Shown: in pieces, positions 19,239-39,181 of the stretch
How the letters are laid out: the number at the start of each line of letters is the position of its first letter
How positions within the stretch are numbered: the stretch's first letter is position 1
IMG/VR virus record: IMGVR_UViG_3300011113_000238
Location: 20,111 to 84,110 of that record
Reading direction: 5' to 3' (one strand)
DNA length: 64,000 nt
Source of the DNA: a virus
Program-made: the position numbers and the translations under genes
The notes under the pieces: generated by a model
Told to the model about the DNA's origin: nothing
The model's database searches: none
Seen by the model: the letters and a program-made list of their open reading frames with translations, nothing else

Positions 19239-21944
19239 TTACTGGCAAGCCTCACATTCAGAACCTTTACTGGCTTGTACACCAGCTTGAGTATGAACGT
19301 AATACAGCGCTAGTACGTTCGGATCAGCAAACGCTTCCTCGTGTACTTCTGCGATCCAAGCAGGGTCTTCATCAGCAGCAAAGAACAGGTTCAGTGACTG
19401 CCACTGGTCAACATACGTACTACGTGCGCTTGCCAACCGAAGAACCGCTTTCTGATTAATCTCAAAGGCCGTCTTGAATACTTCCTTCTCTTTATCCGTA
19501 AGCCAAGTCACATGCTGAACCGAACCTTGTGCGTTAGTAATCTCCTGAACGTGCTTACGAGTATACACTCCTTTGGACTTCATCAGTTCAAGTAGCACAG
19601 GATTCAATCTGTCAATTTCACCTGCAGCTGTCATCTGAGTATAACCCATAGCTGGATCAGGATTGATACCTTCTGATACAGAACCAATAAGCAACGATGT
19701 ACTCTTAGTCGGGGCAATAGCAATCAAGTGAGTATTACGCACTCCGTAACCTTTGCACCATTCAGGTTCACCTAGTTCTACGGCAGCATCTGCACTAGCT
19801 TGCTTCGCTTGTTTTGCAATATGCGCTTGGATCTCCTGACTGAGCATATGAGCATCAAATGATTCAAATGATAACCCTTTACTCATAAACAATGTATGCA
19901 CACCACACAGACCTAGACCAAGTGCTCTACTCTTCTCCGTGAACCGAACAGCCTTCTCAAGACCTCGGATACCTTTGGCACGTTCAATAAACTCACCAGC
20001 TACACAATCCAGAAACAATGTAGCCCAGTATACAGCGTCAGTATTCTTCCACTCGTCATATCGGAAAGCATTCATCGAAGAAAGAACGCATGTGTATGTG
20101 TGTTCAGCATCATTAAACAGCATAATTTCCGAGCACTGTCCTGTCAGAATACCATTGAAAACACCCATGTGTCGTTTTGGTTCGGTAAAGCAGTATGTAT
20201 CGTCGTAGCGTCCTTCATCTGTCACTGCTGTGACCTTTACGAACTGAGTACATTCGCGATTGGGACGATGATCTGAAATTTCAAGTCGATGAGGTTTAAA
20301 TCCTAATTCGCTCAAAGTACAAATTCCAGTTTGACCAATCAAGAGTCGATACGCCTTTTGAGTCCAGTATTCACCCATTTCACCAGAGCCATCATTCTTC
20401 GGTAGCAGCTTCCAACCTTCGTCTTTAGCCATTGTAACCTTAGATGACACACCCAATGTCTGTAGCATCATTTGTACTTCCTGCAGAAATACCTTATTTA
20501 TACTACCAACTTGAATACTCTGTGTTTTACCGTTTCTAGTGATTGTCCCATCGCCATCGCAAAGACCCGCAAACCACTCAAGTTTGGACTTGATTGTGTA
20601 ATCTCCACTAGGTACTGTAAACTTTTTAGCCAAGAGCTTACTTGTAGCAATCTCTCGATTCTCGGTTTCCTGCACATACCAGTTATGGAAGATACTCGTA
20701 TCAACAAATTCTTTAAGTTTACGCTTGTCATGATAGAAATAAATCTTTTGCTGCGCACCGTCTACAAAACCTTCGGCACTATACAGACCGTTCTCGTAAG
20801 CATGATCAAATACTTCCTTACCTTCGATAATCGGAAAATCACTTTTAATTAGCTTATCTCCAGCTTTCAGGTCAATAGCTCGTTTTTCAACTGTCCAACG
20901 ATTACCAGAAGTAGGATGACGCATTGCAACGTAGAACTTATGGTAAGGTGTGCATTCCAACTCAAACCCACTGTTAGTACTAACCTTAATCAGTTTTTGG
21001 TTTTCACCAGTCTTACGAACAACAACATTTGAAAACTCCTTACCATTCCACACATTCACCGCTTCGTTCTCAAGATCGGCAATTTGTTGGTAACCTTCAT
21101 CAGTCAAGATCAATGTTTCAGGAGCTACGCACAATTGCGAGTTGTTAATGAACAACCCCTTGTCTACGTACATTTGCGGACGTTTAGCGTTAGCCTTATC
21201 AACAAAGAAGAAGTAACCTTTACCTGTGATCATTTTCAACTTCATTGCCTTTTGGAAACGAGCGATAGCATCAGGGTCTTTGCGGTTAAGTCGATCAATG
21301 AATGTCTGTCTGATTGTCCAACCCAAATTCAGATCATCAGGTTCTGCGTTTGCATGATCTGCTAACTCAAAGAAGTCACCGTGCTCAATATCCAAGTAGC
21401 AAGCCCAAGCACCCCTACGAGCAGTACCTTGTGCGATGTTACGCATAGCATTTACATGCTCTTTGATAATCGGGAGTACACCGCTTGCTTTACCGCCTAC
21501 ACTGATACTAGAACCACGAGGGCGAATATTACTCAGGTCAGTAGCTGTACCAAAACCATATTTAGTTAACATCGCTACTTCGTGAAGGTTACTATAGAAA
21601 CCATCCACAGAATCATCCGCAATTGTACCTGAGCAAGATACAGGCATACCTCGGGTTGTACCCATGTTTGCGAATACTGGAGTACTAGGGGATACCCAAC
21701 CTTTCCATAAAAGCTCAAAGAACTTCGATTCAGCTTGTGCTTCAAACTTAGTACCTTTTAGATGTTTAGCTGCAGTACGTGCGATGCGTTCAAACTGACC
21801 TTTGACAGATCGACCGTGAACTTCGTATTCGTACTTCTCCTTAAACATCTGGAAACCTGCAGTTGTATACCAGTCAGGAACTAGACCTTGTTGTTGTAGT
21901 TGTTTGCGTTCTTCGCTTAGTTTGCGATAAATATTATCAGTCAT
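19239..21944 (-). CDS. nrdA: class I ribonucleotide reductase alpha subunit, intein-containing, no ATP cone
   Basis: SPSTPV, PVSC, LCSEI after splicing, CVLSS, IAPTKSTS, LYY, C-terminal CEAC; start moved to ATG 21944. Confidence 0.95.
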   Translation of the reverse strand: MTDNIYRKLSEERKQLQQQGLVPDWYTTAGFQMFKEKYEYEVHGRSVKGQFERIARTAAKHLKGTKFEAQAESKFFELLWKGWVSPSTPVFANMGTTRGMPVSCSGTIADDSVDGFYSNLHEVAMLTKYGFGTATDLSNIRPRGSSISVGGKASGVLPIIKEHVNAMRNIAQGTARRGAWACYLDIEHGDFFELADHANAEPDDLNLGWTIRQTFIDRLNRKDPDAIARFQKAMKLKMITGKGYFFFVDKANAKRPQMYVDKGLFINNSQLCVAPETLILTDEGYQQIADLENEAVNVWNGKEFSNVVVRKTGENQKLIKVSTNSGFELECTPYHKFYVAMRHPTSGNRWTVEKRAIDLKAGDKLIKSDFPIIEGKEVFDHAYENGLYSAEGFVDGAQQKIYFYHDKRKLKEFVDTSIFHNWYVQETENREIATSKLLAKKFTVPSGDYTIKSKLEWFAGLCDGDGTITRNGKTQSIQVGSINKVFLQEVQMMLQTLGVSSKVTMAKDEGWKLLPKNDGSGEMGEYWTQKAYRLLIGQTGICTLSELGFKPHRLEISDHRPNRECTQFVKVTAVTDEGRYDDTYCFTEPKRHMGVFNGILTGQCSEIMLFNDAEHTYTCVLSSMNAFRYDEWKNTDAVYWATLFLDCVAGEFIERAKGIRGLEKAVRFTEKSRALGLGLCGVHTLFMSKGLSFESFDAHMLSQEIQAHIAKQAKQASADAAVELGEPEWCKGYGVRNTHLIAIAPTKSTSLLIGSVSEGINPDPAMGYTQMTAAGEIDRLNPVLLELMKSKGVYTRKHVQEITNAQGSVQHVTWLTDKEKEVFKTAFEINQKAVLRLASARSTYVDQWQSLNLFFAADEDPAWIAEVHEEAFADPNVLALYYVHTQAGVQASKGSECEACQ
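20136..21131 (-). mobile_element. 332-aa intein with LAGLIDADG endonuclease in NrdA
   Basis: CVAPETLILTD...CTPYHKF...FAGLCDGDG...DTYCFTEPKRHMGVFNGILTGQ/C. Confidence 0.95.
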
Positions 21945-22926
21945 TCGTACCTTTCCATGTAAAACCTGTTTCGTCCCAGTTTCTGTTATATTGATTACCC
22001 ACGCCTGAGAAAAAGTCGTTAAACTGATAGTCGTTAATCCCTTTGTAAAACCAGTCAGCAATTGGATTGTATTTCACTTCGTACTCTTTTTCAAATCCCA
22101 ATTGCTTCAAGCATTCATTCACACGACTTTGCACAAAGTTCTCAAGTTGATGCGCAGTGATACCCTTGATTTCACCCTTCTCAAAGATCATCTGGATAAT
22201 CTGACATTCATGCTCATAAATCTTACGAGCAGTTTCACGCACCAATTGTTCTACCTTCGCCTTGCGTTGTGCAATTTGATCATCAGTATAACCTTCGCTC
22301 TTCAGCTTATTCATCTTGTGTTTGAACGCCCATGCTCCACCTGTTGAATGCAGATTTTCATCACGCACGGAGAAGTTGATTCCTCGGACAATGTTCAACA
22401 ACTTGTTCTTACCTTGACTTTGGAAGTGCTTCAGGAAACCAAAGTTGCTATAAAGAATAACACCTTCAACCAAACTAAATGATGCAAGTGAAACTAGGTC
22501 ATCCTCATGATCAATAATCTCACCAACATGCTCAACTCGACTCTTCAGTACTGCGTTATCCACATAGGACATGTAGAACTCAGGGGTATCAATGTGCAGT
22601 AGTTGGTTAATCTTATTGTAGAACGGGGCATGTACTGCTAGTTCAAACATGCTGAACACAGATGCCATACGATGAAACTCAGCACCATCAAACATATTCT
22701 TGAAGCGACCACCCCAGTATTCAGAACCTGCGTGAGTCTCGTAGATACTGAACAACTTGAGAGTAGTGATCACTGCATGTTTCTCAGCTTCCGTCATGTT
22801 GACCAGAATGTCTTGCACGTCTTTCTCTACTTTGATTTCATCAGGTAACCAAAATACCTTCAGTTGTTGATCAGCAAATTCAATCGGTTCTTTATTCTCT
22901 TCAATCGGTAATAGGTATTTTTCCAT
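21937..22926 (-). CDS. nrdB: class I ribonucleotide reductase beta subunit
   Basis: FWLPDEI, ELAVH...Y, VEGVILYSNF, RDENLH, DFF. Confidence 0.95.
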   Translation of the reverse strand: MEKYLLPIEENKEPIEFADQQLKVFWLPDEIKVEKDVQDILVNMTEAEKHAVITTLKLFSIYETHAGSEYWGGRFKNMFDGAEFHRMASVFSMFELAVHAPFYNKINQLLHIDTPEFYMSYVDNAVLKSRVEHVGEIIDHEDDLVSLASFSLVEGVILYSNFGFLKHFQSQGKNKLLNIVRGINFSVRDENLHSTGGAWAFKHKMNKLKSEGYTDDQIAQRKAKVEQLVRETARKIYEHECQIIQMIFEKGEIKGITAHQLENFVQSRVNECLKQLGFEKEYEVKYNPIADWFYKGINDYQFNDFFSGVGNQYNRNWDETGFTWKGTND

Positions 22927-23485: not shown

Positions 23486-23683
23486 TCAGAGGTACTTGCG
23501 CTTTTCGATAACAGTTAAATTACCTTCTTCGTCAGTTGTCTCTGTGATGCTACTGGCAGTGTCCTCCTTGTATTTATTGTACATCTTAATCAATTGATTC
23601 ATAATCAGTACGTACATTACAACGATAAGTACAATTTGAGCAATAAGAATAAAGTTACCCATTAGTGCAGTGCTTTCTTCCAA
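23486..23683 (-). CDS. small membrane protein
   Basis: One TM segment; in operon. Confidence 0.55.
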   Translation of the reverse strand: MEESTALMGNFILIAQIVLIVVMYVLIMNQLIKMYNKYKEDTASSITETTDEEGNLTVIEKRKYL

Positions 23684-24258
23684 AGGTTTTCGTCGTAAGT
23701 TCCATTCGCAATATCTTCCTCAATTTGAGTCTGCAGTCTAAACATCAAGCTAGTGATAGCGCAAGCAAGGTGATAGCAGTTCGTACCTTTAGAATCATCC
23801 TTATCCAAGTCCAAGCGTTCACCTTTCTTAACTGCCATTATGTGACGTTGGGTAGCGTTGTAATAACGGAAGTCAGCATCTGGAACTAACCGCCAGTTCT
23901 CTTGACCGATTGGTTCATTGTAACGCACAGCACCTACTGTCAGAACCTTCACAACCTCTTCCAGAGCGTTTGTAGGTAGCAGAGCATACATTGGCTTACC
24001 TGAGTCGAACTTACGTCCTGTAGAGGGTTCTGGTGACTTTACGGAGGGTTCTTCTGGTGCGTATTGCCATACAGACTCTTCGTCTCTCTCGCACATGAGT
24101 TCTCCACTATCATCTACTAGCGGACTGCAATCGGGAGCGTGTAGCATTATACAATGCTTGCACTGGTTAGGGTCGCCAATTACGGAATCATCTCGTTTAA
24201 TGAAAATGATCTTGCGACCATTCAATTCATTGACATACAGACTCTTTACTTCACTCAT
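23662..24258 (-). CDS. dATP/dGTP diphosphohydrolase-domain (DUF5664-like) protein
   Basis: GRKFDSGKP...LEEVVKVLTVGAVRY...NW...RH...HLACA. Confidence 0.8.
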   Translation of the reverse strand: MSEVKSLYVNELNGRKIIFIKRDDSVIGDPNQCKHCIMLHAPDCSPLVDDSGELMCERDEESVWQYAPEEPSVKSPEPSTGRKFDSGKPMYALLPTNALEEVVKVLTVGAVRYNEPIGQENWRLVPDADFRYYNATQRHIMAVKKGERLDLDKDDSKGTNCYHLACAITSLMFRLQTQIEEDIANGTYDENLWKKALH

Positions 24259-24751
24259 TGTCACCCTCCTTAATAATCAAACCCAACGGTACAAAAGAAC
24301 TTACATCGTTACTGACGAAGTTACTCGGCTTACGCACCTTGTTGTTAATGTCCTTGAATACAACCAACTCGTAATTAGGATTCTGCTCATAAATAATACC
24401 TACGTCTTTATCAGCGTACATATTCAAAGTATCAATGCAAGTATCAACATCGCTTGTATTAACGAACTTCGTAAGGTTATTGGCAGCCGTAGCTTTCATT
24501 GCACCTAGAGTATCCATCTGAAGTGCATCCAGCATTTGACCAAGACCGGAAGCGGTAACCATAACATCCACGTAACCATCTAGTAGTCCTGTGTGGTTAC
24601 TTGCAAGTAGATCACGTTTAGTTTCGTTAAGTTCCTCCTGAATTAGTTCGATTTGCTCAAGCAAGGATTTCTTTGTTGGTACTCCGTCTTTACCTGCAAT
24701 GGTATTGAAGAGTTGACAATCCTTGATGAAGTCATTGGTTGTGTAGTTCAT
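24251..24751 (-). CDS. MazG-like NTP pyrophosphohydrolase
   Basis: LIQEELNET...LLDGYVDV...NLTK...KVRKP. Confidence 0.75.
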   Translation of the reverse strand: MNYTTNDFIKDCQLFNTIAGKDGVPTKKSLLEQIELIQEELNETKRDLLASNHTGLLDGYVDVMVTASGLGQMLDALQMDTLGAMKATAANNLTKFVNTSDVDTCIDTLNMYADKDVGIIYEQNPNYELVVFKDINNKVRKPSNFVSNDVSSFVPLGLIIKEGDNE

Positions 24752-25145: not shown

Positions 25146-25940
25146 TTAAATTTTAAAGTATCCCAACTCTTTTACACGAGTTAGACAATTAAAATTAAGG
25201 AGTGCATTTTCAACTCTTTCAGGAAGTTTACATTGCAACTTTTCGTAAGCATCTTTGATATACATGTCTTTGAATTTAGCATAAATTTCCCATGCTTCAC
25301 TCTCAGATGAACAGCGTCCAATATGCTCCGATTGCCCAGTCACTGTACGTGTAACTTTCACAGCATAAAGATTACGTCCATGATCGTACTGCATTTTAGT
25401 TGCCAACTGGATAGCAATGTTTAATTCATAAGGTAGCAGACAGCACGTATTTTCCGAATAGAGATTGCCCTTTTGGTTAAGTAAATCGCTATCTAGACAA
25501 ACGACTTTGCCTTCTAAATTAGAATCTTGCATCTCTTGTTTAAACCATTTTGCAAACATCTGATAGTTATACCAAAGAGGGTCAACACTAGAACCCGCAT
25601 CACTATAGCACTTAACAGCTCTAGCGTGATCTTCACTATGATTAACACCGTAGCATCTTGATAACATACCGTGCCATTTAACATACTCTAGGGTTTTCTT
25701 GTTATTGACAGAGATAGGATAACCCTCTCCGTGAAAACCTTTACTACAGATAACTGGTCTATACGGGTTAGGAGGATTTCCATCTCGGATATTCACAGTT
25801 CTAGTCTTCACAACACAATCTGGCTCGTCCGTGTAGCTTATGAAAACACTGTCGCAATTATCGTACTTCACGATCTTAAAAGATTCTCCGTATGCTGTGT
25901 GATAAACACGATCAAAATCAGGTTTTAAACGAGCAGGCAT
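25146..25940 (-). CDS. putative homing endonuclease (HNH-like with AP2-like tail)
   Basis: EYVKWHGMLSRCY, WYNYQMFAKW, LDSDLL...YSENTCCLLPYELN; AT-rich. Confidence 0.75.
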   Translation of the reverse strand: MPARLKPDFDRVYHTAYGESFKIVKYDNCDSVFISYTDEPDCVVKTRTVNIRDGNPPNPYRPVICSKGFHGEGYPISVNNKKTLEYVKWHGMLSRCYGVNHSEDHARAVKCYSDAGSSVDPLWYNYQMFAKWFKQEMQDSNLEGKVVCLDSDLLNQKGNLYSENTCCLLPYELNIAIQLATKMQYDHGRNLYAVKVTRTVTGQSEHIGRCSSESEAWEIYAKFKDMYIKDAYEKLQCKLPERVENALLNFNCLTRVKELGYFKI

Positions 25941-29588: not shown

Positions 29589-30413
29589 TTATACACCAAG
29601 TAACTTTTGTTTTACTTGCTGAATCTTACTTTCGTTGTAATTCTGCACTAGCTCAGGATAATGGTCAATACTGTAATTGCGAAAATAACCACTGCACAGC
29701 GTAGTGCAAATCTTACCCAGTGCTTTTAAGTACGCTAACTTCATTGGGTAATCCCAGTTATTACGAACTAGAAAACGCTCTGTTGCAATTACATACGCTT
29801 CCTCCTGAATGCACTTTAGCTTGTCATCGTGCGATAGCAACAGCCACTTATCTTTCTCGCACCATGCGTTACCTTCTTGACGCAGAAGCTGAGTATACAG
29901 CGGTTTGTCGTAGTGCGCGTACAGCTCATGCAAATAGTCATGGTCATATACCTTACTCACAGCATCATCAAAGAACGCTTCTTTATTCTGCATCAGGTTA
30001 GGATTAGCTTGCGGGTATAACTTCATGGTCATCTCTGTGCGTTGCTGCAGTAGGCGTTCATCTTCGGGTGTGTACCAGTTGGTGAACTTCGCAAGGTGAT
30101 GGTGATACATTGCAATATGACGATCAAATTTCATGTCACGCCACAAGTGACTGCGCTTAATAATGCAAAGACCTCTAGGTTGTACCACATAAACCTTTTG
30201 CCCACCGATTTCTACGGTAGCATCTTCCTGAGTAAACCGAGAGAACTCTTCGTTATTTAGTAACCACGGATCGTGATATTCAATATTAACATTAGGTACT
30301 TCTTGGAATGTGCCGGCGTGGTTTGTGATTACGTCCCAGTCTGTGCTTTCTTTAATTTGCACGGACGGAAACCAGAAGTTTAGCGCTCGTGATCCGATTA
30401 GTAAATTCTTCAA
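29589..30413 (-). CDS. putative nucleotidyltransferase
   Basis: N-terminal LIGSRAL...DWDVI (GS...DxD motif); GGAGG RBS. Confidence 0.7.
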   Translation of the reverse strand: MKNLLIGSRALNFWFPSVQIKESTDWDVITNHAGTFQEVPNVNIEYHDPWLLNNEEFSRFTQEDATVEIGGQKVYVVQPRGLCIIKRSHLWRDMKFDRHIAMYHHHLAKFTNWYTPEDERLLQQRTEMTMKLYPQANPNLMQNKEAFFDDAVSKVYDHDYLHELYAHYDKPLYTQLLRQEGNAWCEKDKWLLLSHDDKLKCIQEEAYVIATERFLVRNNWDYPMKLAYLKALGKICTTLCSGYFRNYSIDHYPELVQNYNESKIQQVKQKLLGV

Positions 30414-30433
30414 AAGACCTCCTGTTAATTGAA

Positions 30434-31242
30434 GATGGTGAGGTGCCCTTACGTTTGCATTGAGAGCCTATTGCTGCAGTAAACCTGTTAGCTGCAACCC
30501 GCTATTTCAAACACCACGAGTCATATTGTCGAACCTGTTTCACTACAGGTACTCTTGCGCATTTTACGCGCATTCACCATCAAGTCTGCACACTATAGAT
30601 CAAACTGTTAGCGCTAACATAGTCCCTCATTCAAGATGCCTCTCGTTTGGTGCGGGCTTCGCTACAGTATGCAGACTTGATAGTTGATGGTGGTCATACC
30701 GTCCTGACCGTGGGTACCCTGAAGGGCACCGAGGATTTGAACCTCTATTTACGCCACTGCACCATCAAGTATGAACCCTCTGCATTCCTATTCGTAAACT
30801 TGCGCTTTAGGCCGTTCCATCTTTCGGATCGTGAGTTCATACTTGATAGTAGCACCTTACGGGTGCTATTCGCCGAGCGTCATATCCAGAAGAACCCCGC
30901 AGCGGAAGGCCGTTTAATACTTGAATTATACCATCATCAAAGCACCGATGGGACTTGAACCCACATACTTTTCGCGCTCTACCTTATCTATAGTTGATAG
31001 AGAACAACTGGTCGCACCGCTTAACCTCACGATGCTTTGATGATAGAAATTATACCATAAGTAGTTGCACTAGGTTAGCAGAGACACAACTCTTTTAAAG
31101 AAACTTATTTATCCAACAGTTACCCATTGCTTTTGTTCCTTGGCTTTTGCCTTCAGCGCTCCGATGTTTAACGCCAGTTTCCCAGCCGCTGCACTTATTA
31201 GTACCTACCAGCGGAATTGTACCTAATGCAACTACTTATGGT
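30434..31242 (-). ncRNA. array of six stem-closed structured RNA cassettes
   Basis: Inverted-repeat arms of 8-23 bp; all mismatches in the four long stems are G-U on the minus strand; no credible ORF. Confidence 0.75.
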
Positions 31243-31314
31243 GCGAGTGGAGAGATTCAAACTCCCGACCGATGGTATAGAAGACCACAGCTCTGTTCCC
31301 TGAGCTACACTCGC
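31239..31314 (-). tRNA. tRNA-Arg(UCU)
   Basis: 76-nt cloverleaf GCGAGTG...GTGGT-CTTCTAT-ACCAT...CACTCGC-A-CCA; T-loop TTTGAAT. Confidence 0.9.
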
Positions 31315-31402
31315 CAATGCTGGTTACGTAATCCAGCGTTGCTATTTAGGTTGCAACCGTAAGACCTTCTAGCTTAGGAGTACTAGAGTTCTAGATTATA
31401 CA

Positions 31403-32074
31403 TCAGAATGGTGCGTCAAGGTCTTCTTCATCAACAGGAGGCTTCGCCTTAGCTGCAGTTTTAGCTGGAGTAGCCTTCTTAGGTGCTTCCTTGGTTTCTT
31501 CCTTAGCCGCACCCTTCAGATACTTTGCGTACTTGTCAGACACGTCAACCTCTTCGCGCTCTTCCTTGACGTATTCAATCAAGTCCAGCACTACGACTTC
31601 ACCGAGGCTCAACTGCATGCTACCGTTGGTGCGCTCCCACTGCTCAATACCCAGAACACCCTTGCTACCGTTAGCAATCAGCTTGGTGTGCGTAATATCC
31701 TTGAGAGTGCCACCCACTACTTCATAGGCTTTTGGCTCATGCTGTGGTAGGATCGGACGACCTGTCTTACCCATTTCGCTGGATTTACGGAAGGTCAACA
31801 CCCACACGTTCTTCCCAGCGTCATCAGGGGCAGGGCACTTGTAGATACCTTCAAACTCTGCAGCTTTTACTTTCTTGATGCTTGGTTTGGCGTCAACCTT
31901 GGTGCACCATGCTTCAAATTCATCCACCCAGTCTTCGTCTGTTACGACGACACTGGCTTTGAATTCATCAGGCTTAGGGTCGGTGCCGGGTTTTTGAAAA
32001 GCTTTTACAGGTTTATCAATCTGGACGTAAACCAGAGTACCTTCAACTTCTTTAAATTGTTCGTTTTGTGCCAT
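31403..32074 (-). CDS. single-stranded DNA-binding protein (T7 gp2.5-like)
   Basis: LIANGSKG...VLDLIEY; acidic tail ending in F. Confidence 0.75.
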   Translation of the reverse strand: MAQNEQFKEVEGTLVYVQIDKPVKAFQKPGTDPKPDEFKASVVVTDEDWVDEFEAWCTKVDAKPSIKKVKAAEFEGIYKCPAPDDAGKNVWVLTFRKSSEMGKTGRPILPQHEPKAYEVVGGTLKDITHTKLIANGSKGVLGIEQWERTNGSMQLSLGEVVVLDLIEYVKEEREEVDVSDKYAKYLKGAAKEETKEAPKKATPAKTAAKAKPPVDEEDLDAPF

Positions 32075-34969: not shown

Positions 34970-35881
34970 TTACGTTCCATGTCGCTCAGTGTAACCAGCA
35001 CCTTGTTCGTTCACCTTCTTGATGAGTGCATCTCGACACTCTATGGCCATCCTGAGAGCTTCATCGTCGCCGTATTTTACACAAGAAAATCCCCGTACAG
35101 TTTTGACGCGATTAACACCAACTGCCACAGTGTATCTTCTAATCAGAGTACCACGTTGGTTAAACCCTTCGTAATACGAAATCATACTATGACCGGTTGT
35201 ATTATTTTTGTTTTTACTTCTATTTCTCCCATTCAACTCAGGTATCACTACTCTTAAATTCTCAATTCTATTGTCATTGCGAATTCCATTAATGTGATCA
35301 ATCCACAAACCTTCTGGTATTTTACCATAATTAAAGAACCACACTAACCGATGTACTTTGTAATGATTACCGAAACCGTGGATTTTCCAATATCCATCAG
35401 AAATGTCAAGTGAACCAGCTACATCTCCTTTTTGAACTTTTGAACCATGTGATGTTTTACCTTTCCATCTGAGACAACTCGGACTAGTTTCATCGTATTC
35501 CAGATAAAGTTTTAACTTGTTGCAATATTTTTCAGGAAGGTCTGTTAAGTCCTCTCGTAGTTTCAGATTGGTTAATTTAGCATTTGTACAATCTCCGTCT
35601 TCAAAAACTAAACTATAACCATCAGGTATCGTACCGTTATGTAGCATCCATATAATCTTCGGAATACTGTACGCGCTTTTCTGATAATTGAGAACAAGAA
35701 ATCCATCATAACTTATTCCACCTGCTTGTCCATTATTTCTTCTGGGCACTAATTTACCACCGTTACCTACTCTCATGTGCTTCCAGCGTAAACAGGTTAG
35801 AGACGTTTCATCGTAAACGAATAATCCATGAATATCTAACTGGTCTAGTTTGTCGTGCGCTTTTCTGATGCGTTCTAACAT
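34970..35881 (-). CDS. HNH homing endonuclease with duplicated module and AP2-like tail
   Basis: VHRLVW...IDHINGIRNDNRIENLR; YDETSxxCLRWK occurs twice. Confidence 0.9.
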   Translation of the reverse strand: MLERIRKAHDKLDQLDIHGLFVYDETSLTCLRWKHMRVGNGGKLVPRRNNGQAGGISYDGFLVLNYQKSAYSIPKIIWMLHNGTIPDGYSLVFEDGDCTNAKLTNLKLREDLTDLPEKYCNKLKLYLEYDETSPSCLRWKGKTSHGSKVQKGDVAGSLDISDGYWKIHGFGNHYKVHRLVWFFNYGKIPEGLWIDHINGIRNDNRIENLRVVIPELNGRNRSKNKNNTTGHSMISYYEGFNQRGTLIRRYTVAVGVNRVKTVRGFSCVKYGDDEALRMAIECRDALIKKVNEQGAGYTERHGT

Positions 35882-37710: not shown

Positions 37711-38571
37711 TTAAAGATCAATCATATCACGAATACCTCTTAACTCGCTCTCAACTTTTTTCACTTCAGAAATAAGTTCTAACTTTTGAGCTTCTTTAAT
37801 CTTTTGCTGTTTGTCACGGAACGCAAGTGCATCTAATAATGAATCAGCATGGTCAGAGTCCCCGAAGAACTTTGACCACTCCTTGTCGTGAAGTCTACCT
37901 CTCGCTACCCAACCATCAGAAAGTCTATGCACACCCGTAATGCCTATGCAATTTCTACCTTCCGCATTTTTATCGTCCCTCAAGAATGTGTTCTGACTTT
38001 GAGTTACGGCTATTAAATTACTAGGCTTATTGTTAGATGGATTTGAATCTATGTGGTTTACAACTAAGTCCGCACTCAGATTTCTTTGGTTGTATAGAAC
38101 CCAAACAACTCTATGACATTGATTTTGCACTTTCAATACTCGAACAGTATAATAACCTCTATCGTTTACCCCTCCTGCGTTTTTATGCGGAACAGCTTTT
38201 ATTGAACTACCTTTATCAAAATCTTTCCATTTTAGACCGCTAGGTGATTCGTCTGAAATATACCAAAACTTATTACAGTAGTCAAACGTCAACTCTGAAT
38301 GAGTCTTAGTGTAATTTTTTTGTATATTTAGTAATTTACTTTTATCTGGACACTCTGACAATAATTTGCATTCTATTTGAATTGCCTCGAACTTAGTCAA
38401 CGCGCTTTTAATAATATTCACCTTAAAATTACAAGACTCTAATCTTTTAAGTAGTCTTTCACTTCTGCTCTTTTTAAATAGGTAAGGTCTTTTTTCATTT
38501 CCATGTCCTATGTAGAATACGCCATCAGAATCTTCATATGAATAAACGCAGAATCGTCTATCTTCTTCCAT
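37711..38571 (-). CDS. homing endonuclease: GIY-YIG-like N-terminus plus HNH
   Basis: CVYSY...FYIGHG...R...E...LLN; CHRVVW...VNHIDSNPSNNKPSNL. Confidence 0.8.
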   Translation of the reverse strand: MEEDRRFCVYSYEDSDGVFYIGHGNEKRPYLFKKSRSERLLKRLESCNFKVNIIKSALTKFEAIQIECKLLSECPDKSKLLNIQKNYTKTHSELTFDYCNKFWYISDESPSGLKWKDFDKGSSIKAVPHKNAGGVNDRGYYTVRVLKVQNQCHRVVWVLYNQRNLSADLVVNHIDSNPSNNKPSNLIAVTQSQNTFLRDDKNAEGRNCIGITGVHRLSDGWVARGRLHDKEWSKFFGDSDHADSLLDALAFRDKQQKIKEAQKLELISEVKKVESELRGIRDMIDL

Positions 38572-38581
38572 GTATTGCTCC

Positions 38582-39181
38582 TTAGATATTAATTACTTCA
38601 ATATGCTGACGGTACAACTTAACTAGATTAATATTACTATCTTCCATGATTTCATAATCAGGGAATTTCTTAATGATCTTGACGATGTACGGATCATCCA
38701 ATTTATACCGCTTGTCAATCAAGAGAACTTTAGCAGCTTCTGCTACTGCAAATTCATATGAAGGCTCCACACGAGTACCGTCATATTCAATCTTGCAGAT
38801 ACTAACAGGAAAGCGATCTATTGTTCTACCAACTGTAGTACCCTGCATCAGCATCAATTGAAAATCCAGAAACATATACCGGAAGTCAACGACCAATTCA
38901 AGGTTATTATCACGAGCATATTCCCCGCGATTCTCACCTTTCTTTACTTCTTTAATCTTTACGCCGATCATCTTAAACAGATTCTGCACCTGCTCTAGTT
39001 TAACATCAGTGATGTAGCAGTCAATGTCTTTTGCTGGTTTACCGAAGTACCAATCTCGCGGAGCGCCACCAGCTACAACTGCAGTGGGGCAGAGAACCCA
39101 AAGGTTACTCAGCATGCGCTTTGCAGCAATAATCTGCCACATGATGATTAGTTTATAGAATACACTCTTGATGAATTTCAT
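38582..39181 (-). CDS. poly(A) polymerase/CCA-enzyme-like nucleotidyltransferase (head domain)
   Basis: VVAGGAPRDW...AKDIDCY. Confidence 0.8.
   Translation of the reverse strand: MKFIKSVFYKLIIMWQIIAAKRMLSNLWVLCPTAVVAGGAPRDWYFGKPAKDIDCYITDVKLEQVQNLFKMIGVKIKEVKKGENRGEYARDNNLELVVDFRYMFLDFQLMLMQGTTVGRTIDRFPVSICKIEYDGTRVEPSYEFAVAEAAKVLLIDKRYKLDDPYIVKIIKKFPDYEIMEDSNINLVKLYRQHIEVINI

What the first reader, a model, noticed from the sequence alone, without database searches (positions are those of the whole stretch)
30434..31242. Tandem array of six stem-closed ncRNA cassettes between tRNA-Arg and a nucleotidyltransferase gene
Seen: this stretch has no credible ORF and is tiled by inverted-repeat pairs. 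A 30434-41/30574-81 (8 bp); B 30576-98/30662-84 (23 bp); C 30684-92/30760-68 (9 bp); D 30761-78/30833-50 (18 bp); E 30931-47/31030-46 (17 bp); F 31054-75/31221-42 (22 bp). The four long stems have 8 non-WC positions, all C-A on the + strand and therefore G-U on the minus strand, the tRNA's strand. That pattern points to selection on an RNA helix. The long stems share a base motif (B and D: CUAUCAAGU...ACUUGAUGGU; E: CUAUCA...UGAUGG; F: CCAUAAGU...ACUUAUGG), but each encloses an unrelated insert of about 55-145 nt, a conserved-handle plus variable-cargo design. Inference: a polycistronic precursor is cut, perhaps by RNase III, into stable small RNAs that could act as decoys or sponges for anticodon nucleases, toxin-antitoxin or other defence proteins, or as guides. 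I do not recognise it as a named RNA family.
Basis: partly seen in the sequence, partly recalled or inferred. Interest (0 to 1): 0.88.

Follow-up and report, generated by a model that had tools for sequence, protein, structure and literature searches.

The report
Phage array of handle-closed structured RNAs
An 84-kb freshwater phage carries, behind its only tRNA gene, an 800-base row of folded non-coding RNAs (long hairpins and tRNA look-alikes) that share a short closing "handle"; the units come and go between strains, match no catalogued RNA family, and have no known function.

Summary
All six inverted-repeat pairs are at the stated coordinates. The four long stems have 73 Watson-Crick pairs and 8 G-U pairs on the minus strand, and no A-C mismatch. 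No ORF with any family match lies there.

It is a minus-strand RNA array: tRNA-Arg(UCU), long hairpin F, tRNA-like E, hairpin D locked to a permuted tRNA mimic C, then hairpin B locked to closed domain A. It ends 10 nt before the ribosome-binding site of a DUF7275/DUF7277 gene, which is not a proven nucleotidyltransferase.

The layout tRNA-Arg, structured gap, DUF7275 recurs in 50 of 82 related loci. The 9-bp handle CUAUCAAGU/ACUUGAUGG recurs with fully co-varying inner stems in eight unrelated viral contigs. Those contigs lack DUF7275 and any Ro60-like gene. Metagenome contigs of near relatives lack single units or carry other cargo behind the same handle.

Rfam 15 matches only the tRNA. The YrlA/Y-RNA tests fail on the Ro60 gene and the binding motif, and pass only on the topology of C.

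Best reading: a polycistronic tRNA-operon array cut by host tRNA- and dsRNA-processing RNases into stable tRNA-mimic and hairpin RNAs. Transcription, processing and function are not shown.

This scan has noted comparable phage handle-RNA arrays on other DNA, mostly beside Ro60-like genes.

The parts
31239..31314 (-). tRNA-Arg(UCU) with encoded CCA. Its 3' ACCA forms the first four bases of the 5' arm of unit F.
   Evidence: ARAGORN; Rfam RF00005 at 60.3 bits; sequence read. One metagenome contig of a near relative skips 31242-31315.
31054..31242 (-). Unit F: a 22-bp stem (handle ACCAUAAGU/ACUUAUGGU) closing a 145-nt branched interior.
   Evidence: I2; MFE -70.2, z -6.93. The same outer 9 bp with a different inner stem and cargo follow tRNA-Arg directly in L096 and L097. 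A relative's contig skips 31043-31237.
31049..31057 (-). Extended -10-like TGGTATAAT at the 3' end of F. It sits 2 nt upstream of E's 5' arm.
   Evidence: 11 TGNTATAAT sites in the window against 3.06 expected (0 of 100 shuffles reach 11). Function as a promoter is inferred.
30931..31046 (-). Unit E: a tRNA-like RNA. It has a 7-bp acceptor AGCAUCG/CGGUGCU, a D arm with GG, a T arm GUGGG-UUCAAGU-CCCAU, an 8-nt 'anticodon' loop and a 27-nt extra region. The acceptor is extended by 10 more bp (handle CUAUCAUCAA/UUGAUGAUGG). There is no CCA.
   Evidence: ARAGORN calls it 'tRNA-Pyl(cta)', 99 nt, with an unpaired extra arm. Rfam tRNA gives only 16.3 bits against a cut-off of 29. MFE -42.6, z -4.73. 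It is flanked by the 11-bp direct repeat AATTATACCAT (D6). Contigs of relatives skip it: 30925-31048 in X3, and 30873-31047 in X3 and X4.
30925..30933 (-). Second TGGTATAAT, at the 3' end of E.
30851..30930 (-). Spacer. It holds a weak terminator-like hairpin (30895-30907) and a small hairpin AGCACC-CGUAA-GGUGCU (30851-30867), 1 nt before D's handle.
   Evidence: terminator-like site; the spacer as a whole folds no better than shuffles (z +0.46). A small hairpin sits at this place in 6 of the 11 handle units I read by eye, mostly with a GAAAGA-type loop.
30761..30850 (-). Unit D: an 18-bp stem (handle CUAUCAAGU/ACUUGAUGG) closing a 54-nt cargo.
   Evidence: I3; MFE -31.8, z -5.41. It is a member of the 10-row handle-hairpin alignment. 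Model R1 scores it 62.9 bits.
30684..30768 (-). Unit C: a permuted tRNA mimic. The order is closing stem UUGAUGGU/ACCAUCAA, T arm GAGG-UUCAAAU-CCUC, a 7-bp loop-closed acceptor-like hairpin GGUGCCC-UUCA-GGGUACC, and a D-like hairpin with GG. Its 5' strand overlaps D's 3' arm.
   Evidence: The MFE is a four-way cloverleaf, -34.0 kcal/mol, z -3.37. Repeat pair I4. Sequence read.
30576..30684 (-). Unit B: a 23-bp stem (the same handle) closing a 63-nt cargo.
   Evidence: I1; MFE -45.0, z -6.06. Model R1 scores it 62.0 bits. A relative's contig skips 30434-30685, which is A plus B.
30434..30581 (-). Unit A: a domain closed by GAUGGUGA/UCACCAUC. It begins GGUGAAUGCGC, as do the domains that follow the handle hairpin in L093, L083 and L310. 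Its 5' strand overlaps B's 3' arm.
   Evidence: I14; MFE -46.1, z -2.30; for the look-alike openings.
30411..30423 (-). AGGAGG (30418-30423) and the TTG start codon (30411-30413) of the downstream gene, 10 nt after unit A.
   Evidence: Sequence read; ORF list.
29589..30413 (-). DUF7275/DUF7277 gene (274 aa). It is the conserved downstream neighbour of the array in this phage clade.
   Evidence: Pfam 6.7e-56 and 1.5e-07. 603 relatives at E <= 0.001 among 785 candidates. G7, S8, D25 and D27 are invariant in 27 sequences. No solved relative by sequence.

Best explanation
The stretch is a minus-strand, non-coding RNA array embedded in the phage's single-tRNA operon. It is built from two kinds of module.

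(1) Long hairpins (F, D, B; 18-23 bp), whose outermost 9 bp are a conserved handle and whose inner stem and interior (cargo) are free to vary.
(2) tRNA-shaped or otherwise closed domains: E in normal tRNA order, C in permuted T / acceptor-hairpin / D order, and A.

The handle's 3' arm (ACUU-GAUGG) runs into the 5' strand of the next domain's acceptor-like stem (GAUGGUG/CACCAUC), so hairpin and domain are physically interlocked.

I propose that the array is transcribed with tRNA-Arg, and also from the -10-like sites in the 3' ends of F and E. Host tRNA-processing enzymes (RNase P, RNase Z or E) would cut at the tRNA-like modules, and RNase III would cut at the long helices. The pieces would persist as stable small RNAs whose paired ends protect them. 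Their most likely job is to occupy host proteins that recognise tRNA or double-stranded RNA, such as defence nucleases or processing and repair enzymes.

Shown: RNA-level structure on the minus strand, conservation, modularity and tRNA mimicry. Inferred: co-transcription, the cutting enzymes, stability, and every statement about function.
For: Strand and structure. There are 8 G-U and 0 A-C among 82 stem positions. Minus-strand MFEs are 7-15 kcal/mol better than plus-strand MFEs. Unit z-scores run from -2.3 to -6.9.

Conservation of layout. ARAGORN finds tRNA-Arg(tct) upstream on the gene's strand in 50 of 82 upstream regions of DUF7275 homologues (80 IMG/VR loci, the window and phage DC31). 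Of 37 distinct gaps folded, 30 hold a contiguous helix of 14 bp or more that closes 30 nt or more, against 2 of 74 mononucleotide shuffles.

Covariation.
- F-type units in L096 and L097 keep ACCAUAAGU/ACUUAUGGU, but all 10-12 inner pairs differ from the window's and still pair.
- Among 231 IMG/VR matches to CTATCAAGT-N35-125-ACTTGATGG, the number of extra contiguous pairs is 0-4 in 224 matches and 8-12 in 7, with none at 5-7.
- On the 10-row alignment, 9 pairs are invariant and 8 pairs change on both sides. 98.7% of cells pair, against 83.1% in shuffles (0 of 500 as high) and 29-42% when slid.

tRNA mimicry. E has a full acceptor, D arm and T arm. C folds into T arm, 7-bp acceptor-like hairpin and D hairpin. 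In L242 the same handle hairpin runs into a tRNA-like RNA that scores 40 bits on the Rfam tRNA model, with 57 nt in place of the anticodon arm.

Modularity in nature. Contigs from three studies skip E, F, A+B or the tRNA. Their likeness to the window breaks at the inner edge of the handles: 30588, 30841, 30760, 30943 and 31034.

Setting. A strong sigma-70-like promoter lies upstream at 32202-32173, and no strong terminator lies inside the array.

Precedent. M. smegmatis YrlA is cut by RNase P and receives CCA (PMC4201824, passages read).
Against: - There is no direct evidence of transcription, ends or stability. The one true metatranscriptome laid (X18) covers array and ORFs alike and consists of contigs.
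- The rows of the covariation alignment were chosen because their stems extend, so their pairedness is partly built in. The independent support is the empty 5-7 class among the 231 matches.
- A and C have short closing stems that compete with the much stronger B and D hairpins, so they may not form as drawn.
- None of E, C or A carries CCA, and E's acceptor is buried in a 17-bp helix. Both features are poor for RNase P.
- No partner protein was identified. DUF7275 is absent from all eight other records that hold the handle, of which five are at least 94% complete.
- The function is a guess.
Confidence: 0.5

Rival explanations
1. It is a cis-acting leader or switch for the DUF7275 gene. The three-way competition between CUAUCAAGU, ACUUGAUGGUG and CACCAUCAA sets whether the segment just upstream of the ribosome-binding site is free, and so controls translation or read-through.
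For: Unit A ends 10 nt before AGGAGG, and no strong terminator intervenes. The stems are mutually exclusive. In 19 distinct variants from 25 related loci, a conserved 117-133-nt stem-closed RNA ends 10-11 nt before the DUF7275 start in most, and 88-107 nt before it in the rest.
Against: The same handle hairpin occurs in eight viral records without DUF7275, five of them at least 94% complete, and beside other genes (integrase, RecT, a DUF2514 lysis-region gene). Near relatives lose A+B, E or F singly. An 800-nt, six-unit leader containing a tRNA is far more than a switch needs. The CACCAUC segment has no complementarity to the SD.
Confidence: 0.14
2. The units are Y-RNA/YrlA-type RNAs that work with a Ro60 (Rsr) ring protein supplied by the host, and the handle is the Ro60-binding stem.
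For: C has the YrlA order of arms: T, then a loop-closed acceptor-like stem, then D, closed by a terminal helix (features from PMC4201824). Y RNAs come in tandem and are cut from one precursor (same paper). This scan has noted many phage handle-RNA arrays beside Ro60-like genes. Those are unchecked leads.
Against: The complete 84-kb genome has no TROVE or DUF2828 match, and neither do five other records at least 94% complete that hold the handle. No GNCGAAN0-1G lies in 30434-31242 on either strand. No Rfam Y-RNA or YrlA family matches even at E <= 10. The host is unknown.
Confidence: 0.12
3. It is one large ornate RNA of the GOLLD/ROOL kind, a single folded particle encoded next to phage tRNAs, and not an array of separate RNAs.
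For: It is about 800 nt, next to a tRNA, in a freshwater phage, and holds tRNA-like inserts. GOLLD and ROOL are phage RNAs 'often near tRNA islands', and GOLLD can carry tRNAs in a linker (bioRxiv 10.1101/2024.12.08.627333, passages read).
Against: Neither family matches in Rfam at the gathering score or at E <= 10. Units are individually missing in near-identical strains, which a single obligate fold should not tolerate. Internal promoter-like sites exist. The closest relatives share no alignable sequence beyond the tRNA.
Confidence: 0.08
4. It is a DNA-level feature: miniature inverted-repeat mobile elements or recombination or replication repeats stacked in one gap, or decaying tRNA genes with no RNA function.
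For: The units have terminal inverted repeats with a shared end sequence. E is flanked by an 11-bp direct repeat and is lost precisely between its two copies in one relative. Unit-sized gains and losses occur. The genome is rich in homing endonuclease genes.
Against: All 8 non-WC stem positions are G-U on one strand, as are 19 of 22 transition-type ones in the other handle hairpins and 43 of 43 in the 121-nt family. DNA cruciforms and transposase ends would not care about strand. The handle occurs nowhere else in the 84-kb genome. The interiors of the units are unrelated to one another. The inner stems co-vary perfectly.
Confidence: 0.06

Closest known systems
YrlA / bacterial and mycobacteriophage Y RNAs with Ro60 (Rsr) (Chen et al. 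2014, PMC4201824; passages read)
   Same: These are modular small RNAs with a stem formed by the two ends plus a tRNA-like module. The tRNA arms are in permuted order (T, loop-closed acceptor-like stem, D), as in unit C. Several RNAs lie in tandem and are cut from one precursor. They also occur in phages.
   Different: Here there is no Ro60/TROVE or DUF2828 gene in the complete genome, no GNCGAAN0-1G motif and no Rfam match. The handle sequence is different. Most units (F, D, B, A) have no tRNA-like interior. The handle interlocks with the next unit's stem.
GOLLD and ROOL large ornate phage RNAs (bioRxiv 10.1101/2024.12.08.627333; passages read)
   Same: They are phage or prophage non-coding RNAs of unknown function, 580 to more than 800 nt, encoded next to tRNA genes. 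GOLLD sometimes has tRNAs inside it.
   Different: There is no Rfam match. This stretch is a string of separately dispensable units, not one conserved fold.
Stable RNAs C and D of the phage T4 tRNA gene cluster (recalled; from no call. My search found no paper on them)
   Same: They are small stable RNAs of unknown function, co-transcribed with phage tRNAs and matured by tRNA-processing enzymes.
   Different: T4 has two fixed RNAs. It has no shared handle, no variable cargo and no strain-to-strain turnover of units, as far as I recall.
tRNA punctuation and tRNA-like processing signals: mitochondrial transcripts, plant t-elements, MHV68 tRNA-miRNA (TMER) genes (recalled; from no call)
   Same: tRNA-shaped modules alternate with hairpin RNAs in one transcript and direct RNase P or RNase Z to release the neighbours.
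   Different: Those are eukaryotic or organellar systems. Here the hairpin and the tRNA-like stem overlap by 5-7 nt, which none of those systems shows as far as I recall.
Correia-type miniature inverted-repeat elements of Neisseria (recalled; from no call)
   Same: They are 100-150-bp units with terminal inverted repeats. Promoter-like -10 boxes sit in the repeat ends, and RNase III cuts the transcribed hairpin.
   Different: Correia copies share their interior and are scattered over the genome. Here the interiors are unrelated, all units sit in one gap, and the mismatches are strand-specific G-U.

Membership tests
tRNA (Rfam RF00005) | Score at or above the curated gathering score (29 bits) on the tRNA covariance model | tested here: not met
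   E scores 16.3 bits (E 3.3). C, A, B, D and F get no tRNA match at E <= 10. Only tRNA-Arg passes, at 60.3 bits.
tRNA (decoding) | A 5-bp anticodon stem with a 7-nt loop, U33 and purine 37 | tested here: not met
   ARAGORN's model of E needs a U-U mismatch in the stem, puts U at position 37 and leaves a roughly 30-nt arm unpaired. The MFE fold instead gives a 5-bp stem with an 8-nt loop.
YrlA / Y RNA | Encoded within about 4 kb of a Ro60 (TROVE) gene on the same strand | tested here: not met
   No TROVE (PF05731) or DUF2828 (PF11443) match in the complete 84,110-bp record. The TROVE control genomes matched.
YrlA / Y RNA | GNCGAAN0-1G motif near the 5' end (presumed Rsr contact) | tested here: not met
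   None of the 24 and 20 window matches to the two forms of the motif lies in 30434-31242.
YrlA / Y RNA | tRNA-like domain with arms in the order T, acceptor-like stem-loop, D | tested here: met
   Unit C only: its MFE shows T arm, 7-bp hairpin and D-like hairpin inside a closing stem.
YrlA / Y RNA | Match to an Rfam Y-RNA or YrlA model | tested here: not met
   cmscan of 30350-31450 at E <= 10 lists 9 matches, none to a Y-RNA family.
GOLLD / ROOL | Match to the Rfam covariance models | tested here: not met
   No match at the gathering score over the window or at E <= 10 over the array. None in 30 related or handle-bearing loci.
Miniature inverted-repeat transposable element | Many copies with a shared interior at dispersed sites, flanked by target-site duplications | tested here: not met
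   The handle occurs only in this gap of the genome. The interiors share no repeat. Only E has a flanking direct repeat.
Type III toxin-antitoxin RNA (ToxI-like) or CRISPR array | Tandem direct repeats of one sequence at a fixed period | tested here: not met
   The direct-repeat families found are 8-32 nt, have 2-3 copies and show irregular spacing.
Handle-hairpin family defined here (model R1) | A 9-bp CUAUCAAGU/ACUUGAUGG helix with a U-G at pair 2, continued by 8 or more further pairs of free sequence | tested here: met
   B scores 62.0 bits and D 62.9 bits. There are 10 further sense-strand members in eight other viral contigs: 8 training rows plus L201 3302-3385 and L043 7444-7543. E, F and 21 loci of DUF7275 relatives do not match.

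The most novel reading that the evidence does not exclude
This would be a Ro60-independent 'handle and cargo' RNA system of phages. A sequence-fixed 9-bp handle that strand-exchanges with a tRNA-like acceptor stem would serve as a universal docking or processing site. Recombination at the handles would swap cargos between phages, giving each strain its own repertoire of tRNA-mimic and hairpin decoys against host tRNA-targeting or dsRNA-sensing defences. In effect it would be a cassette array for RNAs.
Probability: 0.2. Interest if true: 0.85.

Novelty: new variant of a known kind. Interest (0 to 1): 0.62.

Why it matters
Phage tRNA regions are known to hide abundant RNAs of unknown function, such as the T4 stable RNAs, GOLLD, ROOL and phage Y RNAs.

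This case adds a clean, testable example in a small, complete genome with a single true tRNA. It has a defined handle that is conserved across unrelated phages, interiors that are exchanged between natural strains, and two kinds of tRNA mimic without any Ro60-like partner.

If the RNAs are made and are stable, the array gives a compact system for two questions: what tRNA-shaped phage RNAs bind in the host, and whether they counter tRNA-directed defences. If it is only a processed leader, it still documents an uncatalogued, co-varying RNA family.

Tried and rejected
Named RNA families. Rfam found only tRNAs: at the gathering score on the window, at E <= 10 on the array, on 20 related loci, and on 10 handle-bearing or candidate loci.

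Guide or antisense role. blastn-short of the array against the rest of the 84-kb genome gave nothing better than a 13-nt match, which is the TGGTATAAT repeat (E 0.94).

Sequence homology of the units. blastn with word size 7 against all loci then held aligned only tRNA-Arg. The phage collection gave 3 records, all matching the tRNA alone.

Closer relatives.
- The search for related loci with the single protein found none in IMG/VR.
- In the metagenome collection it found only relatives of 48-55% identity.

Bacterial genomes. CTATCAAGT-N43-73-ACTTGATGGTG gave 29 matches. None has more than 3 extra pairs, so all are chance.

F handle elsewhere. The scan gave 11 loci. Only L363, which is the contig of L097, is a true unit. 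L359 is an unrelated perfect palindrome.

A shared neighbouring protein for the handle hairpins. All-against-all blastp of ORFs within 5 kb of eight loci and of the window found no family common to them.

Annotation of the DUF7275 protein.
- A PDB sequence profile search gave nothing below E 0.9.
- The Atlas returned only DUF7275 clusters.
- hhalign against the window's other NTase-like ORF gave probability 0.2.

Expression. The runs found are Logan contigs. The one true metatranscriptome (X18, marine, share 0.10) has contigs on both ORFs and array, so nothing about transcription, ends or habitat can be drawn from it.

E as an amber-suppressor tRNA. I rejected this because of the 8-nt loop or mismatched stem, U37, 16 bits on the tRNA model, and the missing CCA.

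IHF site, K-turn, hammerhead and RNase P P4 likenesses of the handle or the GAAAGA hairpin. I considered these by eye and dropped them, because the consensus positions do not fit.

Literature. Five searches found no description of this handle or array.
Full report
WHAT IS THERE

The window is bases 20111-84110 of an 84,110-bp IMG/VR virus record with direct terminal repeats, rated 100% complete.

All genes around the finding run on the minus strand. From upstream to downstream they are:
- tRNA-Arg(UCU) at 31239-31314;
- the 809-nt stretch in question;
- AGGAGG and a TTG start at 30413;
- a 274-aa DUF7275/DUF7277 protein.

The whole genome has no other tRNA by ARAGORN except the odd 'tRNA-Pyl' call on unit E.

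THE OBSERVATION

All six inverted-repeat pairs are found at the stated places.

The minus strand of 30420-31320 folds to -325.5 kcal/mol, against -265.9 +/- 9.8 for shuffles (z -6.08). Every long stem appears in that fold. Unit by unit, z runs from -2.3 (A) to -6.9 (F), and the minus strand beats the plus strand by 7-15 kcal/mol for B, D and E.

On the four long stems I count 73 Watson-Crick pairs, 8 G-U pairs in the minus sense, no A-C and one other mismatch. If transitions hit either arm at random, half of them should give A-C on this strand.

No minus-strand ORF of 40 aa or more exists here. The three plus-strand ORFs have no family match.

ANATOMY

Read as RNA, the array contains the following.

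- F is a 22-bp stem whose first four bases are the tRNA's own ACCA.
- E is a tRNA-shaped RNA with a regular 7-bp acceptor, a D arm and a T arm (T loop UUCAAGU). Its centre is irregular, it has no CCA, and its acceptor helix runs on for ten more pairs.
- A spacer follows, with a weak terminator-like hairpin.
- D and B are 18- and 23-bp stems that begin CUAUCAAGU and end ACUUGAUGG.
- Behind each of them lies a domain closed by GAUGGUG.../...CACCAUC: C behind D, and A behind B.

C folds into a four-way junction. Its arms, in order, are a T arm (GAGG-UUCAAAU-CCUC), a 7-bp loop-closed acceptor-like hairpin, and a D-like hairpin with GG. That is a tRNA in permuted order.

The 3' arm of each hairpin overlaps the 5' strand of the following domain by 5-7 nt. 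The two therefore compete or form a strand-exchanged junction. I could not decide which.

TGGTATAAT sits at the 3' ends of F and E. The window holds 11 TGNTATAAT sites against 3.06 expected, so these may be internal promoters.

RELATIVES OF THE PHAGE

The DUF7275 protein has 603 relatives at E <= 0.001 among 785 candidates. It matches 728 phage records by tblastn. The best are Limnohabitans phage DC31 (53%) and the Naomviridae roseophages DSS3_PM1 and DSS3_VP1 (42%).

I read 82 upstream regions (80 IMG/VR loci, the window and DC31). ARAGORN finds tRNA-Arg(tct) on the gene's strand within 2.5 kb upstream of the gene in 50 of them, with gaps of 17-1612 nt between the tRNA and the gene.

Of 37 distinct gaps folded, 30 contain a contiguous helix of 14 bp or more that closes at least 30 nt, against 2 of 74 mononucleotide shuffles.

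The two closest loci available (L096 and L097, 61% protein identity) carry, fused to the tRNA's ACCA, a 112-nt unit. It has the same outer nine pairs as F and entirely different, still perfectly paired, inner stems. L097's interior contains a T arm.

More distant relatives carry other stem-closed RNAs. A 117-133-nt family occurs in 19 distinct variants from 25 loci. It has a conserved core and a co-varying variable hairpin, and usually ends 10-11 nt before the start codon. Other units reuse its outer stem with different interiors.

By sequence, only the tRNA of the window aligns to any of these loci. Rfam sees only tRNAs in 20 of them.

THE HANDLE OUTSIDE THIS PHAGE CLADE

Three IMG/VR scans for CTATCAAGT-N(35-125)-ACTTGATGG gave 231 matches. 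I counted the further contiguous pairs inside the handle. The counts are 0-4 in 224 matches, none at 5-7, and 8-12 in 7 matches (L043, L093, L201, L238, L240, L242, L310). An eighth, L083, has one mismatch. Chance predicts about 0.1 matches with 8 or more extra pairs.

The ten hairpins (two from the window) align in register at both ends. On 17 pairs, 9 never vary (including a fixed U-G at pair 2) and 8 change on both sides. 98.7% of cells pair, against 83.1% in shuffles (0 of 500 as high) and 29-42% when the partner is slid. The rows were picked for extended pairing, which inflates the paired share. The gap in the distribution is the unbiased evidence.

Their transition-type non-WC positions are 19 G-U against 3 A-C.

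A covariance model built from them (R1) finds the training rows and two further units (L201 3302-3385 and L043 7444-7543). It finds nothing in 21 loci of DUF7275 relatives, and it does not find E or F.

These contigs are unrelated phages. The contexts are an integrase (L043), a RecT gene (L083) and a lysis-region DUF2514 gene (L093). No protein family is shared between them and the window within 5 kb.

All eight of their full records lack DUF7275, and five of them are at least 94% complete; those five also lack TROVE and DUF2828.

In most of them the hairpin is followed by GGUG..., closed further on by ...CACCAUC(AA). In L242 that domain scores 40 bits as a tRNA, with 57 nt in place of the anticodon arm. 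Several of them (L242, L201, L043) have two or three such units in tandem, like the window.

The same pattern followed by TG is absent, apart from 29 chance matches, from one genome each of 185,579 prokaryote species.

VARIATION BETWEEN STRAINS

I laid Logan contigs of four runs from four studies on 29600-32000 at 85% likeness or more. They show joints that remove whole units:
- 30873-31047, replaced by ACTTG (two studies), which removes E and part of the spacer;
- 30925-31048, lying exactly between the two copies of the 11-bp direct repeat, which removes E;
- 30434-30685, which removes A and B;
- 31043-31237, which removes F;
- 31242-31315, which removes the tRNA.

Loose ends, where a contig continues with unlike sequence, lie at 30588, 30841, 30760, 30943, 31034 and 31245. 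These are the inner edges of handles or unit borders. So in nature the handles stay while the interiors are exchanged or lost.

These are short metagenome contigs, and most joints rest on a single contig.

WHAT IT IS NOT

- It is not a catalogued RNA. Rfam 15 finds only tRNA-Arg at the gathering score, and nothing credible at E <= 10.
- It is not a YrlA/Y RNA by the published criteria (PMC4201824). No Ro60-like gene is present, the GNCGAAN0-1G motif is absent, and no model matches. Only the arm order of C fits.
- It is not GOLLD or ROOL (no match).
- It is not a ToxI-like or CRISPR array (no periodic direct repeat).
- It is not a dispersed MITE (the handle occurs only in this gap).
- It is not a set of guides against the phage's own genes.
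- E is not a credible suppressor tRNA.

MECHANISM

What is shown: selection on minus-strand RNA helices, a sequence-fixed handle shared by unrelated phages, tRNA mimicry in two topologies, interlocking of hairpin and domain, and unit-wise turnover.

What I infer is as follows. The array is transcribed with the tRNA, and possibly from internal -10 sites. Host RNase P and RNase Z or E recognise the tRNA-like modules, and RNase III recognises the 18-23-bp helices. The products are stable because their ends are paired. They act by occupying host proteins that read tRNA shape or dsRNA.

YrlA gives a precedent for RNase P cleavage of, and CCA addition to, a tRNA mimic. The phage has a second, weakly PolyA_pol-head-like gene at 38582-39181 (E 0.005, below the cut-off), although its only tRNA already encodes CCA. 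This would make sense if CCA-less mimics were substrates. That link is speculation.

The rivals, in order of my odds, are:
- a leader or switch of the DUF7275 gene (0.14);
- Y-type RNAs that use a host Ro60 (0.12);
- one large ornate RNA (0.08);
- DNA-level repeats or dead tRNA genes (0.06).

NOVELTY

My five literature searches and Rfam give no description of this handle or of an array like it. The supplementary motif lists of PMC10690425 could not be opened.

The general kind is known: tRNA-mimicking and other stable RNAs in phage tRNA regions, and Y RNAs in tandem. Earlier notes of this same scan describe comparable 'handle RNA' arrays in other phages, mostly beside Ro60-like genes and with a different handle. 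I used those notes as leads. I tested their Ro60 idea here, and the result was negative.

I therefore class this as a new variant of a known kind. It is interesting mainly for three things: the Ro60-independent, sequence-fixed handle; its interlock with a tRNA-like stem; and the natural exchange of cargo.

TOOLS THAT WERE CLOSED

This left the closest relatives and the fold of the DUF7275 protein unexamined.

Noticed in passing
L101, L103, L113-L115, L121, L122, L126, L129-L133, L140, L141, L150, L151, L153, L168 and L001 (e.g. L001 3870-3990): A 117-133-nt RNA closed by the 21-bp stem GGUUAUAGUUCAGUAUAUUUC/GGAAUAUACUGAACUAUAACU. It has a conserved core and a co-varying variable hairpin, and usually ends 10-11 nt before the DUF7275 start codon. 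There are 19 distinct variants, and no Rfam match in the members scanned.
   Followed up: partly
L105 2844-2942, L146 3030-3128, L150 2949-3046, L151 2870-2973: tRNA-like genes of 98-104 nt lie directly after tRNA-Arg. They score 44-50 bits on the tRNA model and end in CCA. Their 'anticodon' stem co-varies (CCUCU/AGAGG against CCGAC/GUCGG) but encloses about 22 nt in place of a 7-nt loop.
   Followed up: partly
L083, L093, L201, L310 (domains after the handle hairpin) and window 30434-30581: These share the opening GGUGAAUGCGCAG..UGAUGCGC, and show co-varying GUGAU/AUCAC against CUGAU/AUCAG segments. This suggests a second conserved RNA domain, closed by GGUG/CACC.
   Followed up: partly
L043, L093, L201, L242, L310 (1 nt upstream of the handle): A 5-bp hairpin with a GAAAGA or GAAGGR hexaloop and co-varying stems, preceded by G(G)ACA. 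In the window its place is taken by AGCACC-CGUAA-GGUGCU (30851-30867).
   Followed up: no
L002 1280-4906 and L003 1265-4891 (Naomviridae DSS3_PM1 and DSS3_VP1): The DUF7275 homologue lies three genes downstream of a metallophosphoesterase and an RNA ligase 2. This hints at a link to RNA end repair.
   Followed up: no
window 38582-39181 (-): A second nucleotidyltransferase-like ORF. It matches PHROG 'nucleotidyltransferase' families and matches the Pfam PolyA_pol head weakly (E 0.005, below the cut-off), although the phage's only tRNA encodes its own CCA.
   Followed up: no
window 19239-22061 (-): The ribonucleotide reductase large subunit is interrupted by an intein with a LAGLIDADG domain.
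   Followed up: no
window 25146-25940, 34970-35881, 37711-38571 (-): Three free-standing HNH endonuclease genes lie between the replication genes.
   Followed up: no
window 23662-24264 (-): A protein with the N-terminal domain of dATP/dGTP diphosphohydrolase (PF18909, 1.1e-20). This may be a sign of modified DNA bases. The nearest named relatives of the DUF7275 gene include the dU-containing Naomviridae.
   Followed up: no
L359 15-130: A perfect palindrome of about 116 bp (54-bp arms) in an unrelated viral contig. It was picked up by chance by the F-handle pattern.
   Followed up: no
window 30427 (loose end in run X3): In one related strain the sequence on the gene side of the array's ribosome-binding region is different: another start region follows the array.
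   Followed up: no
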